A stretch of 64,000 nt of DNA from Raja brachyura. Taxonomy: Eukaryota. This document shows, piece after piece, positions 1 to 6,000 of the stretch. The stretch lies in contig OY740808.1 of assembly GCA_963514005.1 (NCBI GenBank), positions 22,258,001 through 22,322,000 on the forward strand, read 5' to 3'. The stretch's first letter is position 1. Each line of letters opens with the position of its first letter. The position numbers are program-made.

Positions 1-3000
1 TTCATTGTTAATTATATAATTAATTATCATAATAATTGTTAAAATAATACTTAAGATCTTGAATAATTTCATATTCCATTATATTTTTCTCCAACTAAAT
101 ATTGGGTTTAAAAAAAAATTGCTTCCCTCCCCACCCCCGTTCCTTTTCTCCCCCTCCTCTCCCCACCCCTTCTCCCTCCACCAGCCCACCCCTGATCATT
201 AATCTGTTGCTGTCTCGCCTTAAGTCTGGTAGGGTTGGATTACTTGAGGTGAAACAAAGACTAATCGATGTTCCACAAAACAAAGCTAGTTTTGAAACAC
301 AAGTGTAAACTTGGAGATGTCGAAATTCTGGTGCACTGGTATTGGTTTATTCTTGTCACAGGTAACAAGATACAGTGAAAAGATTTTGTTTGCATGCTAT
401 CCAATCAAATCAAATAATACCATACACGAGTACAATAAAATATCTGAGTAGAGAAAAAAGAAAAATGCCAGAGTGCACAATAATGTTCTCGAGATGGAGA
501 AAGATGAGCGGCGAATTTAAAACGGCTGGAGAAAATATTTGCACTAAGTGTAACTGTTAGATACATCAGTAATTCTGTTGGGGTAAAGCTCGTACAAGTA
601 ATGGTGATCTGAAACTATCTGATCCTTTTGACAATTGTGTCCTTTTGGGGAAGTTAATTTATTGTTAAGCCGTATACCCAACCATGACTACAGATTGACT
701 CTTGATTGCTGTTTTGGACAGATAGACCAAATTCAATATAGTTTTTTATAATTACATTAATTCATGTAGTTTCTGCATTTGTCTTACTATATATATTTTT
801 TATTCCAATCATTCATCAACTGACTAGAGGGAACAATAGGAATTGCAATGACATTTGGAGTCATACAGAAAATAAACAGGCTCTTCAGCACAACTTGATC
901 ATGTCGATCAAGACGCCCCATCCAAGCTAGTCCCATTTGACTGCGTTTGTCCACATGTCCCTCTAAACATTTCATATCCATAGACCTGTCCTAATGTCTT
1001 TTAAATACTTTGATAGTACCTTTCTCAAATCTAGCAGCTCGTTCCAAATATCGACAACCCACTGTGTGAAACAATTCCCCCTCCAGTTCCTATTGGAGCT
1101 TTCCCCTCTCACTTTAAATCTATTTCCTCGGGTTTTTGATTCTCCTGCCTGGCATAAAAGAATCTATGCATTCACCTGATCTACGCCCTTCATAATTTTA
1201 TACACTTCTATAAATTCACCCTAAGACTCCTGCACTCTAAGGAATTAAGTCCTGGCCTGCCCAAACTCTCCCTCTTACTCAGGCCATTGAGTCCTGGCAA
1301 CATCCTCATAAATCTTTTCTGAACCCTTTCCAATTTAATTCTGTTGATGTAGTTGAGCTGCCTTATCTGATGCAATAGATCAAATGGTCTCTGGATTACT
1401 AATACATTTGGATTGGTAATACATTTGTGCAAATGTGGCTCGTTAATCATTTAACTAAACCTTTGTGCAAGGTTGAGCCACCTTATCTGATGCAATAGTG
1501 GTCTCTGCATAGCAAATAAAAATGGATTACTAACACATTTGTGCAAGTTTGGATCAATAACCACTTGTCAAGCTTATGTATTGTCCTATTTTAGCCCATT
1601 CTCCTCTGATTACTATCTGGCATCAGGTTTCACTATGTTCCACCTGCAATTGTGTTTGAGAGTTCTGTTTATATCATGGATGTTGTTTGAAGAACTGGGT
1701 GAAAAAAAGCGCTATAGGGTGGCATGAAGGCAGAGCAGTAGACCTGCCTTTTACAGCACCAGACACCCCGGTTCACTCCTGACTGCAGTCAGGGCTGCCA
1801 ACATTGGGTGAGAGTTGGGAGTGAGAAATTCTGTGAGATCAAGCCCAAGGGAGCGTAGCGACCGAGGGGGGGGGGGGGGGGGGGGAGGAATGGTGTGGTA
1901 CGAGCTTTTGCATTTTACAGCTTGAAATTGTACAATCTGGTGCATACTGTAGCGAGTCTTTTAACTTACACTTGAATCCAATATTTATGTTTTAAATTGG
2001 ATTAGTTATGAATAAGGTTAGGCTGAATTACATTCCACAGTAGAGCCAGGCTCTGATCAACAGGTGCAGCACACGAATGATCTTAGTGTATTCATGTATG
2101 GAAATCAGATTATAATCAAGCACTTGGCCCATGTTGACAAACCTGGGTCTCACTGCACACCTGATACTACTCCTACCCTGACTCCAGTTGCGTACCTTCT
2201 CTCATTCCTGACCCTGAGTCCAGCCTTACACCTGGCCCCCTATTCTACCCTGATCATGGCTACTTACCTGCTTAGGTTCTCAGTGCTGAACACTCCCATT
2301 GTCCCAGCTTTGACTGCACACCTAGTACTATTCCAGACCTTGAGTCTTGATGCACACTTGGCCTTGCTCCTAGCCCCTCTGCATTGACAATATATCTGGC
2401 CCACACATAAAGCCCCATATCTGACCCCCTGGACTTAACCTATTACGTTCAAGTCCACAGGTGCTTATCTAATGCGGTAATCTTTTGTGAGGCACTTCAC
2501 GGACCAAATTTTGTATAACAAAATTTGCTACATCCATTGGCTTCATTGTTATCTAAAATGCTAGTTATTTTGTCAAAGAAGTCATCAATTTGTTGAACAA
2601 AATTTCTCATCCATAAAATTATACTCACTCGGCGGTATAAATATTCTGTTACCATTTCCTTCATTTTCCTAACAATCAGTCCTGAAGTCATTTTTACCCC
2701 CAATATTTTCAGCATTTTGCTGTCTTCCTTTCAGCTGGGACTTTTCTGAAAATCAAAGTCATATATGCAAAGCAATAACAATATATATTTAAACAATAAT
2801 ATTCTATTTAATGTGATCTTGAGAGTACATAATATTTTCTGTGGTATTCATAACACAACAATGATGCATTGTTTTGATTGCACCCACCAACATGCATACA
2901 TTATTATATTACAGTTAATATGCACCGAGGGCAAATTTGTGCTCCAATGCTCCCCATTCCCAATTACTTTTACATTGAAATCCAAGTGAAGTTTAAATAG

Positions 3001-6000
3001 CATTAGAAAAATAAAACCTCCGGAATGGATGATATTCATTACGTGGTTGGTTGGGGTCAGTATCAGCACAATTACTATATTAAATGTTCTGGTTCAAGCT
3101 AAAACTAAAGACAAACAATAACCTCCTCACACATTCCCCTGCAAGTATCTCTGTCACTCCTTTAAAATATGTCCCTTCTTTGAAAAAGCTCTTAAACATC
3201 GCATCTGAATCAGTTTCCAACTGATTACACTCCTTGAGGATGTTCATCTACATGTTCAATTAATAAAACAACGAGATTGGGGACATTTCTATTCCACCTG
3301 TCAAAGGAATTTGTGGTGGGGGGGGGGGGGGGGGTTAGAAATAGTGTGGTAAACAAACACCATGCATGAATGCTGCAAAATCAAGTGGTTGAGTTTTTTT
3401 GCCATATACTCAAGCATAGAAAATAGGTGCAGGAATATGTAATTCAGCCCTTCGAGCCAGCACTGCCATTCAATATGATCATGACTGTTCATCTAAAATC
3501 AATACCTCTTTCCTGTTTTTTTTCCCATGTCCCTTGATTTCGTTAGCACCAAGAGCTAAATGTAACTCTCTCTTGAAAACATCCAGTGAATTGGCCTCCA
3601 CTGCCTTCTGTGGCAGAGAATTCCACAGATTCACCACTCTCTGGGTTAAAAAAGTTTGTCCTCATCTCAGTCCTAAATGGCCTACTCCTTATTCTAAAAA
3701 CTGTGATCCCTGGTTCTGAACTCCCCCAACATCGGGGACATTTTTCCTGCAGTTACAGTAAGAGAAAATCTATCAGGCATGCAGGATGCTTTCTCCAACC
3801 ACCCCCATTTGAAGGCCACTATCTTCCACTGCTTCTACCCAGTGCTTGGTACCTACTTCCAGCAGCCATTGGTTGTCCTCCTGGAAGAACCGAGCTGCAG
3901 CCTGGTCTGGGATGGTCACCAGGGCGAATTGGGTGCAGAGACTCTCACGGCAGCAGCGCAACTCTTCCGAACCTCCGACGGCCCGGGACTCTTGCACTGA
4001 GGCTGCTCCATGGCCGGAGCTGCAGCGAGCGACTAGCCAGCCCCGGCTCCCCATCCGCATCTGCTTCTGCTTCCGTCCCTTCCTCCGCCCCGGCTCTCCA
4101 ACACCCACGACCAGGTTGCTCAGAGCACAGCAGCACCTCGTCCAAAGCCGGAGACATTGAAACATGTCTCGCCAAAAAAGTGCTCCTCCCCCCCAGCCCC
4201 CCCCCCCCCCGGCTCCGCGGCCCATTAACCTCTCTCCTTCCGCTCGCCGGCCTTGCTTATGTAAGCCGCTTCCTGCAAATCCTTACATTCCGACTGCTGC
4301 CAGGAGCAGGACATGGGCTCACTTGCTGCGCTGGGTGACACTCATCCACTGCCCAGTCCGTGTCTTTCAATGTAAATTTGCATGGGGACGGTTTTGGAGG
4401 TGTGTGACGGTTCGTGAGAATAATGAGAATAATCGTGAGAGTGAGAATAACAGAGAATAAGAATGCTGCTGTCTTGTCAACAGACACGCACACAAGCAAT
4501 TGATATTAGTTTTGAAATTCTCTTTGATCACAGAATTTCTCACCGCAGAGCATGCAAAATTCTGTGATCAGCGTGAGAATTGGGTGAAATGCGTGATTCT
4601 CACGCTCAATGCATGAGAGTTGGCAGCTCTGCTGCGGTCATTGTCAGTATGGAGTTTGTACGTTCTCTCTGTGGGCCGCATTGGTTTTATCTGGGTGCTC
4701 CTGTTTCCTCCCGCAAATATCAAACAAGGCCATAGCTTTAAAGTTAGAGGGATAAAGTTTAAAGGAGATGGCAGGGCAAGTTCTTTATACGGTGCAACAC
4801 GCTGTCAGGAGAGATTGTGGAAGCAGATACAATGGTGGTATTTCAGAGGCTTTTAGATGGGCACATGGATATGCAGGGAATGGAGGGATATTGATCATGT
4901 GAATGCAGCAGAGATTAGTTTAGCTTTTCATCCTGCCAACTAATGTACATCATGTTCCAAAGCACACATCAATGGTTCGATGGTGTTTTTAACGCACTGT
5001 GAAATTCCTTTCTTATGTACAGTCCAGTAAACCATTGCCATACCTAAACACATCCCCAATTAGCAAGGTGTACAGAAATAGTCTACTGAGCTTACATGCA
5101 AGAGGTGCCATGTTTTGGCATCGTTTTCAAAGTCCAGTCCGCGCTCCAGTTCGTACGAGCGGTGCCCGATCCAGGCGAGCCCCAGGCTGCTGTGTACCTC
5201 CAGCCATCGCCTTTCTTGGGCACGGCGTCCCTCTCCTCCCTCCGAAACAACATTTTCCCTTCTGTTATCAGGCTTCTGATAAGCTAGGGTACCTTCCGAT
5301 TCACCTCCACCCCAATGCGGACATTGGATTTTGTCTCTGGAACTGACGCACTACAATACTGAGAAATATATTCTGCACACTGTTCTGCACACTGTATTCT
5401 CCCCCTTTTGCTCCACCTATTCTACTTGAGTTTGATGATTGTATTTATGTATAATATTATATGTATGGATAGAATGCAAAAGGCAGCTTTTCACTGTGGC
5501 AATTTTCACGTGGGAATAATTAACCTAAACAGAAAGCTGCATTTGCTGTGAGAACAAAGATTGATGCAGCTTGCCCTGGAATGCAGTGATATTTAGTACC
5601 AAAAGAGTGACCGTTTGGTTTCCCATTAAGCCACACAATGCAAGGTGGCACTGATGTAAGCTGAGCAGAGTTTTATACCAGTGGTTGGCAAAAGCATTGT
5701 TTCAATTGGCCTGCTGATCTCTGGAAAATGCCCACAAGCGTCGGGGCTGTCCACTGCAGCGGACCTAATCTGCGAGTTTAGAAGAGTGTCTTCGACCTTC
5801 AAGCTCGCAGCATGGTCGACACATGGTCCTAGGAGGTCCTATGAGGTCACTGGAACTCTCCTTCATGCTCGAGGGAAGTTCCCGAATACTCGCGGCCTCA
5901 GCTGGGTCGCGGAAACATTTTCAGCATGTTGAAAACATTTTCCGCGAGTAAAGTTTGGTTGGCATGGTTCTTTATAACTCATAGTGCAGTGGAGTGGGCA

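What the first reader, a model, noticed from the sequence alone, without database searches (positions are those of the whole stretch)
1791..4631. Pack-type hAT-like DNA transposon carrying host gene fragments
Seen: TIRs, a 7/8-matching 8-bp TSD, subterminal GTGAGA repeats, and flanks that rejoin into one SINE, so the 2.84 kb entered as a unit. The interior has no recognisable transposase but holds several unrelated host-like pieces: a TDP2-like exon with GC-rich upstream region, a 36-bp-period segment and an exon-like segment. Established: gene-fragment capture by TIR elements is well known in plants (Pack-MULE, Pack-CACTA) and much less documented in vertebrates. Inference: a Pack-hAT family in cartilaginous fish.
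Basis: partly seen in the sequence, partly recalled or inferred. Interest (0 to 1): 0.75.

Follow-up and report, generated by a model that had tools for sequence, protein, structure and literature searches.

The report
Old transposon carrying a TDP2 fragment
A decayed cut-and-paste DNA transposon sitting inside a skate SINE carries a broken copy of the start of the DNA-repair gene TDP2, which is a further example of a kind of gene-fragment capture already catalogued in vertebrates.

Summary
Window 1791-4631 (2,841 bp) is bounded by 13-bp inverted ends (12/13) and an 8-bp duplication (7/8). The flanks rejoin without a gap against 7 other copies of the same SINE-like repeat. GTGAGA/TCTCAC occurs 9 times in the 327 bp of end sequence, against 0.21 expected.

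The interior has no transposase: 0 of 62 ORFs reach a Pfam cut-off. It does hold a genomic copy of the TDP2 5' end on the minus strand: leader, coding exon 1 and the start of intron 1 (at least 3776-4073). The first 11 residues are identical to little-skate TDP2. A 1-nt frameshift follows, and the UBA-like domain is no longer detectable.

The other claimed cargo does not hold up. One block (3412-3757) is a 5'-truncated CR1-like LINE tail. The 36-bp period is not significant. The one ORF I tested as a candidate for the "exon-like" piece has no real homologue.

Three inferences are not shown: hAT membership (a P-like class remains possible), entry of the whole 2.84 kb as one unit, and existence of a family (only one copy, no genome to search). 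Tan et al. 2021 already report 370 animal Pack-TIRs, 208 of them hAT. Verdict: a new member of a known kind, of modest interest.

The parts
1717..1790 (+). Left half of the host SINE-like repeat, up to and including the left TSD copy
   Evidence: Collinear with other copies of the repeat in the window. The pairwise local alignments give 67-75% identity.
1783..1790 (.). Left target-site duplication, CTGCAGTC
   Evidence: Matches 4632-4639 at 7/8. The duplication is exactly 8 columns relative to 7 other SINE copies.
1790..1802 (+). Left terminal inverted repeat, CAGGGCTGCCAAC. Its first C is shared with the TSD.
   Evidence: It is 12/13 complementary to 4619-4631.
1791..1865 (+). Left arm of the element, with GTGAGA at 1808, 1821 and 1833
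   Evidence: The inner limit at the poly-G tract is provisional because no family consensus is available.
1821..1836 (.). Subterminal inverted repeat, left copy (GTGAGAAATTCTGTGA)
   Evidence: 16/16 complementary to 4528-4543.
1866..3411 (.). Unassigned interior. It holds poly-G 1866-1885, a weak degenerate 36-bp periodicity at 2176-2283, AT-rich DNA, and poly-G 3318-3334.
   Evidence: No Pfam hit. No other copy in the window. The periodicity is not significant. ORF 2497-2730 (minus) hits only bacterial repeat proteins at E of 4e-5 or weaker. Poly-G tracts are common across the window.
3412..3757 (-). 5'-truncated 3' end of a CR1-like LINE, ending in a TTTCTATG tail
   Evidence: Seven other copies in the window at 71-80% identity. 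The alignment shows the truncation point and the tail. One copy, 21074-21381, lies just downstream of an RVT_1 ORF at 20082-20747. The CR1 naming from the octamer tail is recalled, not tested.
3758..3856 (-). Start of TDP2 intron 1, with the GT donor at 3856-3855
   Evidence: Similarity to little-skate TDP2 protein stops at ...QWLLE, directly before GTAGGT. The read-through translation down to 3776 matches the read-through ORF of P0126 at 24/27.
3857..4011 (-). TDP2 coding exon 1 as a pseudo-exon. The ATG is at 4011-4009 and a 1-nt frameshift lies at about 3970.
   Evidence: MEQPQCKSPGP is 11/11 to Leucoraja erinacea TDP2. After that the reading continues in another frame, 28/40 to the same protein by my count from the alignment. 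Against P0126 there are two frames overlapping by 1 nt. UBA_4 is detected in P0126 (26.5 bits) but not in the window copy.
4012..4394 (-). TDP2 leader and presumed promoter. The block is GC-rich and CpG-island-like and includes poly-C 4188-4210.
   Evidence: Homology to the P0126 upstream ORF reaches at least 4073, through a third frame. For 3857-4350, GC is 0.628 and CpG o/e is 0.63, against 0.45 and 0.42 for the window. Beyond 4073 the assignment is inference from composition.
4395..4631 (+). Right arm of the element, with GTGAGA at 4414, 4435, 4441 and 4573 and TCTCAC at 4538 and 4598
   Evidence: The inner limit is provisional; one search counted motifs over 4380-4631.
4528..4543 (.). Subterminal inverted repeat, right copy
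4619..4631 (-). Right terminal inverted repeat, which reads CAGAGCTGCCAAC on the minus strand
4632..4639 (.). Right target-site duplication, CTGCGGTC
4640..4715 (+). Right half of the host SINE-like repeat
   Evidence: Matches 9 other places in the window at 74-88% identity (4642-4715 is the longest match). Collinear across the junction.

Best explanation
This is one old, non-autonomous cut-and-paste (TIR) DNA transposon copy in a skate genome. It inserted into a SINE copy and duplicated 8 bp of target. It has short 13-bp terminal inverted repeats and clusters of a GTGAGA-type hexamer in both subterminal regions. These are the expected transposase-binding architecture and fit the hAT superfamily best.

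It encodes no transposase. Between its arms lies foreign DNA. One part is a genomic (intron-containing, so not retro-copied) duplicate of the 5' end of TDP2: leader and CpG-rich upstream region, coding exon 1 and the first ~100 bp of intron 1. Next to it lie a truncated CR1-like LINE tail and ~1.5 kb of unassignable sequence. The TDP2 copy is dead as a coding exon: it has a 1-nt frameshift after codon 14 and its UBA-like domain has decayed below detection.

Inferred mechanism: the TDP2 piece was copied in by repair synthesis with template switching at a double-strand break in the element. This is the gap-filling or FoSTeS-type route described for Pack-TIRs. I judge it somewhat more likely (about 55:35) that this happened in place, after the element had settled in the SINE, than that a chimeric element transposed here as a unit.

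Shown: the insertion signature, the absence of a transposase, the TDP2 origin and decay of the cargo, and the LINE fragment. Inferred: the superfamily, the capture mechanism, and the order of capture and insertion.
For: Insertion signature. The TIRs match at 12/13 and the TSD at 7/8. The SINE rejoins exactly when one TSD copy is removed: 0 gap columns, against 8 in both controls, across 7 other copies. The hexamer occurs 9 times against 0.21 expected. There is a 16-nt perfect subterminal inverted repeat. The TIR+TSD signature appeared 2 times in 20 shuffles, and the other 6 real-window cases lie inside long inverted dispersed repeats.

Non-autonomous. 0 of 62 ORFs of at least 30 aa reach a Pfam cut-off.

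TDP2 origin. The only hit among proteins of 297-2000 aa is TDP2 of Leucoraja erinacea (E 1.7e-6). The first 11 residues are identical. Similarity ends at a GTAGGT donor. P0126, an unnamed 112-aa ORF with an intact exon reading into the intron, matches the window at 52/65 and 22/27 in two frames.

Not the functional TDP2 gene. There is a frameshift. UBA_4 is found in P0126 but not in the window copy. The UBA part shows 10/38 changes where P0126 and L. erinacea differ at 2/38 (my count from the alignments). No other TDP2 exon is in the window. The only recognisable gene in the window is GAL3ST1, 97% identical to that of Amblyraja radiata.

Mechanism prior. Tan et al. 2021 (PMC8277862; abstract and passages) report that 4 of the Pack-TIRs were multicopy, that 59.8% of 281 unique cases were intrachromosomal, and that most single-copy cases are attributed to transposition-independent gap filling.
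Against: No second copy of the ends or of the cargo could be looked for, because no eukaryotic genome collection is at hand. Neither the family status nor the order of events is tested.

The parental TDP2 locus of this genome was not seen. The parent is represented only by proteins from related skates (P0005, P0126).

The hAT assignment rests on the TSD length and a 5-nt terminal motif. The TSD could be read as 7 bp. The ends also resemble the P-like Pdre2 TIR.

The parent does not lie within the window. This goes against the strong cis bias (<15 kb) reported for in-place gap filling and leans towards a transposed unit.

The interior (~2.5 kb) is far larger than the median 224-bp filler in Tan et al.

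The 1.5 kb at 1886-3411 is unexplained. It could be more TDP2 intron, native element sequence, or something else.
Confidence: 0.8

Rival explanations
1. A true mobile Pack element. The TDP2 fragment was captured elsewhere, and the chimeric 2.84-kb element then transposed into this SINE as one unit. It may belong to a multicopy family.
For: The whole interior lies between intact-looking ends with a TSD. The parental gene is not within the 64-kb window. In Tan et al. the multicopy (transposed) Pack-TIRs were always distal to their parents, and 3 of 5 interchromosomal frog cases were multicopy. The cargo is large, as the multicopy cases tended to be (not significant there).
Against: There is no second copy of the ends or the cargo in the window. 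Only 4 multicopy cases were found in that survey, which gave them as 1.4%. TIRs, TSD and a rejoining SINE are equally expected if the filler was added after insertion.
Confidence: 0.35
2. The element belongs to the P superfamily (Pdre-like, mobilised by a THAP9-type transposase) rather than hAT.
For: Zebrafish Pdre2 has 13-bp TIRs, 12-bp subterminal inverted repeats and 8-bp TSDs (bioRxiv 10.1101/2024.03.22.586318, passages). This is the same architecture as here: a 13-bp TIR, a 16-bp sub-TIR and an 8-bp TSD. By hand comparison, the printed Pdre2 TIR matches the window's ends at 9/13 and 10/13, including the inner CTG.CAAC. A 7-bp reading of the TSD would sit better with P than with hAT (a 7-8 bp range for P is recalled).
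Against: Both ends begin CAGRG and so meet the hAT terminal motif YARNG (PMC3014272, passage). Pdre2 begins CAT. From recall, many vertebrate hAT-Charlie TIRs also carry an inner ...CAAAC motif, so the resemblance may not discriminate. No THAP9-like ORF remnant is present.
Confidence: 0.15
3. This is the genuine first exon and promoter of this species' TDP2 gene, and the TIR/TSD pattern is coincidental or irrelevant.
For: The exon has an ATG, an identical N-terminus, a plausible GT donor and a CpG-island-like upstream region. Only 1.8 kb of sequence lies downstream of the element on the gene's strand, so later exons could lie off-window.
Against: A 1-nt frameshift follows codon 14. The UBA domain is not detectable, while it is in P0126. 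There are 10/38 changes in a domain that differs at 2/38 between two skate sequences (my count). The segment is bracketed by a TSD inside a SINE that rejoins exactly. The neighbouring gene is GAL3ST1, which is not a TDP2 neighbour in human (recalled synteny, weak evidence).
Confidence: 0.03

Closest known systems
Pack-TIR / Pack-hAT elements of animals (Tan et al. 2021, Nat Commun 12:4280, PMC8277862). An example is Pack-hAT-N8_XT of Xenopus tropicalis, which carries 291 bp of the CAPSL 5' UTR.
   Same: Non-TE host sequence sits between the two ends of a TIR element. The cargo comes from the 5' end of a gene. It is a DNA-level copy that includes intron sequence. It is flanked by TSDs. hAT is the commonest carrier, with 208 of 370 cases.
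   Different: The host is a cartilaginous fish. 'Shark' occurs 0 times in that paper's main text, and its species list is in a figure and supplements I could not see. The interior is much larger (~2.5 kb against a median of 224 bp) and composite. The copy is old and decayed, whereas that survey targeted young cases with identifiable parents. Copy number and parental locus are unknown here.
Ds2 and Ds-l4 elements of maize that carry gene fragments (Du et al. 2011, PMC3260210)
   Same: These are non-autonomous hAT elements with short TIRs (11 bp), 8-bp TSDs and subterminal hexamer repeats (AAACGG there, GTGAGA here). They hold filler DNA that is occasionally a gene fragment with intron sequence, and they are often inserted in repeats (passages read).
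   Different: They are plant elements whose autonomous partner (Ac) is known. Here there is no partner, no family consensus and an unrelated hexamer.
Pack-MULE / Pack-TYPE elements of plants
   Same: The concept is the same: TIR elements that duplicate and carry host gene fragments, often 5' ends.
   Different: They belong to a different superfamily (Mutator: long TIRs and 9-10 bp TSDs, recalled). They reach high copy number and are frequently transcribed. Tan et al. found no Pack-MULE in animal reference genomes.
Zebrafish Pdre2 (P-like element; bioRxiv 10.1101/2024.03.22.586318)
   Same: It has 13-bp TIRs, distant subterminal inverted repeats and 8-bp TSDs. Its TIR matches the window's ends at 9/13 and 10/13 positions.
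   Different: Pdre2 begins CAT and encodes a THAP9-type transposase. The window element begins CAG (the hAT motif) and encodes nothing.

Membership tests
hAT superfamily (non-autonomous member) | 8-bp target-site duplication | tested here: met
   The duplication is exactly 8 columns relative to 7 other SINE copies, and the two copies match at 7/8. Caveat: the 8th base is also the first base of the left TIR, so a 7-bp reading is not excluded.
hAT superfamily (non-autonomous member) | Terminal motif YARNG (as stated in PMC3014272) | tested here: met
   The ends read CAGGG and CAGAG, counting C1790 as the first TIR base.
hAT superfamily (non-autonomous member) | Short TIRs plus multiple subterminal short repeats within ~200 bp of each end (the Ac AAACGG paradigm, PMC3260210) | tested here: met
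   The TIR is 13 bp and matches at 12/13. There are 9 GTGAGA/TCTCAC copies in 327 bp of arms against 0.21 expected. Binding by a transposase is inferred, not tested.
hAT superfamily (non-autonomous member) | Ends shared with an autonomous element that encodes a hAT transposase (BED finger, DDE, hAT dimerisation domain) | not testable with these tools
   There is no transposase domain in the element (0/62 ORFs). None was found among the 70 of 112 window ORFs of at least 90 aa that I scanned. No eukaryotic genome or repeat library is at hand.
Pack-TIR (sensu Tan et al. 2021) | Non-TE sequence flanked on both sides by parts of one TIR element | tested here: met
   The TDP2 fragment (at least 3776-4073) lies between arms 1791-1865 and ~4395-4631, which share TIRs and subterminal repeats. 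The arm limits are provisional.
Pack-TIR (sensu Tan et al. 2021) | An identifiable parental copy of the captured sequence elsewhere in the same genome | tested here: inconclusive
   Intact TDP2 exists in related skates (P0005, named L. erinacea; P0126, unnamed) and the window copy is a degraded version of it. The parental locus of this genome could not be searched.
Pack-TIR (sensu Tan et al. 2021) | Multicopy family with different TSDs (needed for the claims 'family' and 'moved as a unit') | not testable with these tools
   There is no second copy in the 64-kb window. No genome is available.
P superfamily (Pdre-like) | 13-bp TIR, subterminal inverted repeat and 8-bp TSD (Pdre2 architecture) | tested here: met
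   The window element has a 13-bp TIR, a 16-bp perfect sub-TIR and an 8-bp TSD. hAT elements share these features, so they do not discriminate.
P superfamily (Pdre-like) | TIR sequence related to P/Pdre ends, and a THAP9-type transposase partner | tested here: inconclusive
   The ends match the printed Pdre2 TIR at 9/13 and 10/13 (by hand). The third base is G, not T. There is no THAP9-like remnant.
Dada superfamily | 6-7 bp TSD and insertion at fixed sites of tRNA or snRNA genes (tRNA nucleotides 8-13 or the anticodon region; PMC8869645) | tested here: not met
   The insertion lies just 3' of the GGTTC...CCTGA stretch of the SINE head, well downstream of its start. It is not at the reported tRNA positions. 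That this SINE head is tRNA-derived is recalled; ARAGORN and Rfam found no tRNA.

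The most novel reading that the evidence does not exclude
The element is one member of a still-unrecognised, transposition-competent Pack family in skates. Such a family would move a CpG-island promoter together with the first exon and splice donor of TDP2 around the genome. It would act as a portable promoter and exon trap able to create chimeric transcripts. It might be driven by a P/THAP9-type rather than a hAT transposase. The excess of changes in the UBA-coding part (10/38 against 5/51 elsewhere, p = 0.049) would then reflect a past period of expression and selection rather than noise.
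Probability: 0.1. Interest if true: 0.6.

Novelty: new member of a known kind. Interest (0 to 1): 0.3.

Why it matters
Capture of gene fragments by DNA transposons is one route to exon shuffling and new promoters. In animals the catalogue is recent and dominated by mammals, frogs and alligators. I found no cartilaginous-fish case in print: 'Pack-TIR' occurs in 3 papers of the searched library and none concerns these fish by title, and 'shark' does not occur in the main text of the metazoan survey. This element would extend the phenomenon to skates and provides a clean, datable example: an empty-site proxy from the SINE, and a cargo with a known parent gene. On its own it is a single decayed copy with no sign of function, so its value is as a seed for a genome-wide search rather than as a discovery.

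Tried and rejected
Other copies in the window. BLASTN with word 9 and short-query BLASTN with word 7 found no copy of the arms or of the interior other than the LINE block and poly-G. The TIR pattern with up to 2 mismatches gave only the two ends plus one 2-mismatch chance hit; 62 of 100 shuffles gave at least 3 matches.

Poly-G tracts. The tracts at 1866-1885, 3318-3334 and 4188-4210 (as poly-C), and the 34-nt 88% direct repeat 1867-1900 / 3318-3351, looked like possible internal structure or template-switch junctions. I set this aside because long poly-G/C tracts occur throughout the window and the arm-to-arm alignment there is low-complexity only.

Candidate 'exon-like' ORF 2497-2730 (minus strand). 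Pfam gave nothing at E of 0.05 or better. A full HMMER search of 1.84 billion representatives gave 6 weak hits (E 4e-5 to 5e-4, 3-5 stretches each). Four of the 6 carry a bacterial Por_Secre_tail sorting domain, so I rejected them as compositional.

Dada superfamily. I considered it because of the possible 7-bp TSD and the SINE target, and rejected it on insertion site.

Rfam and ARAGORN on the whole window gave no hit, so the tRNA origin of the SINE is not shown here.

The listing of cluster members, meant to see which skate species share the GAL3ST1 and TDP2 clusters, could not be made because the database was off. The species of the window is therefore known only as a rajid-like skate, from 97% identity to A. 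radiata GAL3ST1.

A literature search for the left TIR string found only an unrelated primer.

Dating capture against insertion. The TSD and TIR differ at 2 of 21 paired positions. The cargo differs from P0126 at 15 of 89 aligned codons. The intervals overlap, so this does not decide the order of events.

Full report
What is there.

The window is vertebrate DNA. Its one clear gene is a single-exon galactosylceramide sulfotransferase ORF at 47166-48338 (Pfam Gal-3-0_sulfotr, E 5.7e-148). It is 97% identical to GAL3ST1 of the thorny skate Amblyraja radiata, so the source is a skate or close relative. The window has one N run (6780-6991), which I left alone.

The insertion.

The sequence at 1790-1802 (CAGGGCTGCCAAC) and the reverse complement of 4619-4631 (CAGAGCTGCCAAC) match at 12 of 13 positions. 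Directly outside lie CTGCAGTC (1783-1790) and CTGCGGTC (4632-4639), which match at 7/8. The mismatch is a CpG-to-CpA change.

The flanks belong to a ~200-bp interspersed repeat (SINE-like) that has many other copies in the window. I joined the flanks in three ways and aligned each to 7 other copies:
- With both duplication copies kept, all 7 show an 8-column gap.
- With one copy kept, there is no gap.
- With none kept, the query shows an 8-column gap (first seen).

This is as good an empty-site proxy as one window can give. The two ends arrived in one event that duplicated 8 bp.

One detail remains open. C1790 serves both as the last base of the duplication and as the first base of the left repeat. 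The data fit an 8-bp duplication with a left end one base short. They fit a 7-bp duplication with full ends equally well.

Both subterminal regions are packed with one hexamer. GTGAGA or its complement occurs 9 times in the 327 bp of arms, against 0.21 expected from the rest of the window (49 in all; P about 1.5e-12; the arm limits were set after seeing the motifs). A perfect 16-nt inverted repeat links 1821-1836 to 4528-4543.

As a chance control I scanned the window for any 13-bp inverted pair (at most 1 mismatch) 200-5000 bp apart and flanked by an 8-bp direct repeat (at most 1 mismatch). There were 7 cases. Six of them lie inside long inverted copies of dispersed repeats. Twenty block-shuffled windows gave 2 cases in total.

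The interior.

None of the 62 stop-to-stop ORFs of at least 30 aa that overlap the element reaches a Pfam cut-off, and none resembles a transposase (12 were first scanned). The element is non-autonomous.

On the minus strand, 4011-3979 translates to MEQPQCKSPGP, identical to the first 11 residues of tyrosyl-DNA phosphodiesterase 2 of the little skate Leucoraja erinacea (P0005). That protein was the only hit among proteins of 297-2000 aa. The match then continues in another reading frame (3976-3857). It is 28/40 identical up to ...EDNQWLLE by my count from the alignment. It stops exactly where the DNA reads GTAGGT, a plausible splice donor. No other TDP2 exon is in the window.

A second search restricted to the exon part found P0126, an unnamed 112-aa ORF from a 1,217-bp public contig. 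It has the same exon intact and in one frame, and like the window it reads on into the intron. I judged it skate-like, not human, and cite it only by its id.

Against P0126 the window matches 22/27 over leader and N-terminus (4041-3961) and 52/65 over the rest (3970-3776). The two stretches are in frames that overlap by one base, which means a 1-nt deletion at about 3970. A further stretch of leader aligns in a third frame up to about 4073.

The cargo therefore includes at least 298 bp of genomic TDP2: leader, coding exon 1 and 81 nt of intron. Because intron sequence is included, it was copied as DNA and not through mRNA.

P0126 scores 26.5 bits on Pfam UBA_4 (cut-off 21.8). The window copy gives no hit even at E up to 1. 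By my count from the alignments, P0126 and the little-skate protein differ at 2 of 38 positions in that domain, while the window copy differs from P0126 at 10 of 38. The copy is a decayed pseudo-exon, not this animal's TDP2 gene.

The GC-rich block upstream (3857-4350: GC 0.628, CpG o/e 0.63; window 0.45 and 0.42) still looks like a CpG island. It is presumably the copied promoter, but beyond 4073 this is inference.

Only one exon is present.

The other 'cargo'.

Block 3412-3757 has 7 other copies in the window at 71-80% identity. Aligned, it is the 3' end of a LINE. It is truncated at its 5' side near 3757 and ends in a TTTCTATG tail. One full-length-side copy at 21074-21381 lies just downstream of a reverse-transcriptase ORF (RVT_1, 20082-20747). 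The octamer tail suggests a CR1-group element, which is recalled rather than tested. It lies only ~100 bp into the copied intron and in the same orientation as TDP2. It may have been copied along with the intron or may have inserted separately.

The '36-bp period' consists of three units beginning CCCTGA at 2176, 2212 and 2248. The lag-36 autocorrelation (0.37) is below the 95% level of shuffles (0.412), and TRF finds nothing.

As a candidate I tested the most protein-like remaining ORF (2497-2730, minus strand). It has no Pfam hit. In a full search of 1.84 billion representatives it gave only six weak multi-stretch hits, four of which carry a bacterial Por_Secre_tail sorting domain. I regard those as compositional.

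The remaining ~1.5 kb (1886-3411) is unassigned. It may be more TDP2 intron, native element sequence, or other filler. The poly-G tracts inside the element are not special, since such tracts are frequent across the window.

Which superfamily.

An 8-bp duplication and ends reading YARNG are given as the typical hAT features by Novick et al. 2010 (PMC3014272, passage read). CAGGG and CAGAG meet the motif. Short TIRs plus subterminal hexamer clusters are the Ac/Ds architecture (PMC3260210, passages).

These features are not exclusive to hAT. The zebrafish P-like element Pdre2 is described with 13-bp TIRs, 12-bp subterminal inverted repeats and 8-bp TSDs. Its printed TIR matches the window's ends at 9/13 and 10/13 by hand comparison (bioRxiv 10.1101/2024.03.22.586318, passages). 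From recall, many vertebrate hAT-Charlie ends also carry an inner CAAAC-type motif, so this resemblance may not discriminate.

I put hAT at roughly 0.7, P-like at 0.15, and the rest on other or undecidable classes. I considered Dada (6-7 bp TSD, tRNA targets) and rejected it on insertion site.

How the cargo got there.

They show only that the two ends came together.

Tan et al. 2021 (PMC8277862; abstract and passages read; supplements closed) found 370 Pack-TIRs in 100 animal genomes (81 vertebrates), 208 of them with hAT elements. Only 4 were multicopy. They attribute most single-copy cases to repair of a break inside a resident element using another sequence as template. They propose fork stalling, template switching and then transposition for the multicopy ones. 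On that base rate I favour filling in place.

Three features lean the other way: the absence of the parent within the window, the large interior, and the well-kept ends. My estimate is about 55% in place, 35% transposed as a unit, and 10% other. Dating does not help. The TSD and TIR differ at 2 of 21 paired positions, and the cargo differs from P0126 at 15 of 89 aligned codons, which are overlapping ranges.

Novelty.

I found no report for cartilaginous fish. 'Pack-TIR' occurs in 3 papers of the searched library, none on these fish by title. 'Shark' occurs 0 times in the main text of Tan et al.. Their species list is in a figure and supplements that I could not see, so an elephant-shark entry cannot be excluded. 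A single decayed copy without evidence of expression or amplification is of modest interest. It becomes interesting only if a genome-wide search shows a family that spreads the TDP2 promoter and exon.

One oddity remains. The once-coding UBA part has changed more (10/38) than the leader, N-terminus and intron read-through (5/51; Fisher p = 0.049). This is marginal and cannot be tested without the parental DNA.

What stayed unchecked.

These were left open: sister copies, the donor locus, orthologous empty sites, Dfam/Repbase classification, cluster membership of the skate proteins (could not be made), and the supplements of Tan et al. No sequence met here was taken to be human.

Noticed in passing
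window 47166-48338 (+): A single-exon ORF of 391 aa that encodes galactosylceramide sulfotransferase (GAL3ST1). It matches Pfam Gal-3-0_sulfotr at E 5.7e-148 and is 97% identical to the Amblyraja radiata protein. It is the only clear host gene in the window and places the source among skates.
   Followed up: partly
window 41200-42655: A ~1.45-kb minisatellite of period 28 (or 61) and about 47 copies, with unit CACACACCCATCTGCCTACCCCCCCCCCACA. It produces long spurious ORFs in several frames between 40789 and 42827. Next to it, at 40059-40545, is a 22-bp tandem array with 22 copies at 94% matches. That array causes false Pfam hits (LRR_5, Rieske).
   Followed up: partly
window 20082-21381 (+): The 3' part of a CR1-like LINE. 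It has an RVT_1 ORF (20082-20747, E 8.7e-22) followed by the same 3' tail that is found inside the element. Seven further copies or fragments of the tail lie at 15905, 21957, 34022, 37277, 57355 and 59216, plus the one in the element.
   Followed up: partly
window 1352-1566: A two-copy direct duplication of about 114-120 bp lies just upstream of the host SINE. It comprises 1352-1378 / 1472-1498 at 93% identity and 1385-1452 / 1499-1566 at 75% identity.
   Followed up: no
window 3857-3970 (-): The UBA-coding part of the captured TDP2 exon differs from the intact skate-type sequence P0126 at 10/38 residues. The leader, N-terminus and intron read-through differ at 5/51 (Fisher p = 0.049). Several of the changes need two or three nucleotide substitutions. 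This is unexplained.
   Followed up: partly
window 4727-4778 (+): Directly after the truncated right half of the host SINE comes another short fragment of a dispersed repeat (87% identity to 62019-62071, minus strand). The SINE copy itself is therefore cut short by a further insertion or rearrangement.
   Followed up: no
window 11400-22100: A dense cluster of inverted copies of dispersed repeats, with arms of 51-171 nt at 78-97% complementarity. An example is 16099-16269 / 21045-21215. These mimic a TIR+TSD signature in a naive scan.
   Followed up: partly
window-wide: Long poly-G/poly-C tracts of at least 10 nt are unusually frequent. About a dozen lie outside the minisatellite, several of them 17-20 nt long. 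No tRNA or Rfam family was detected in the whole window.
   Followed up: no
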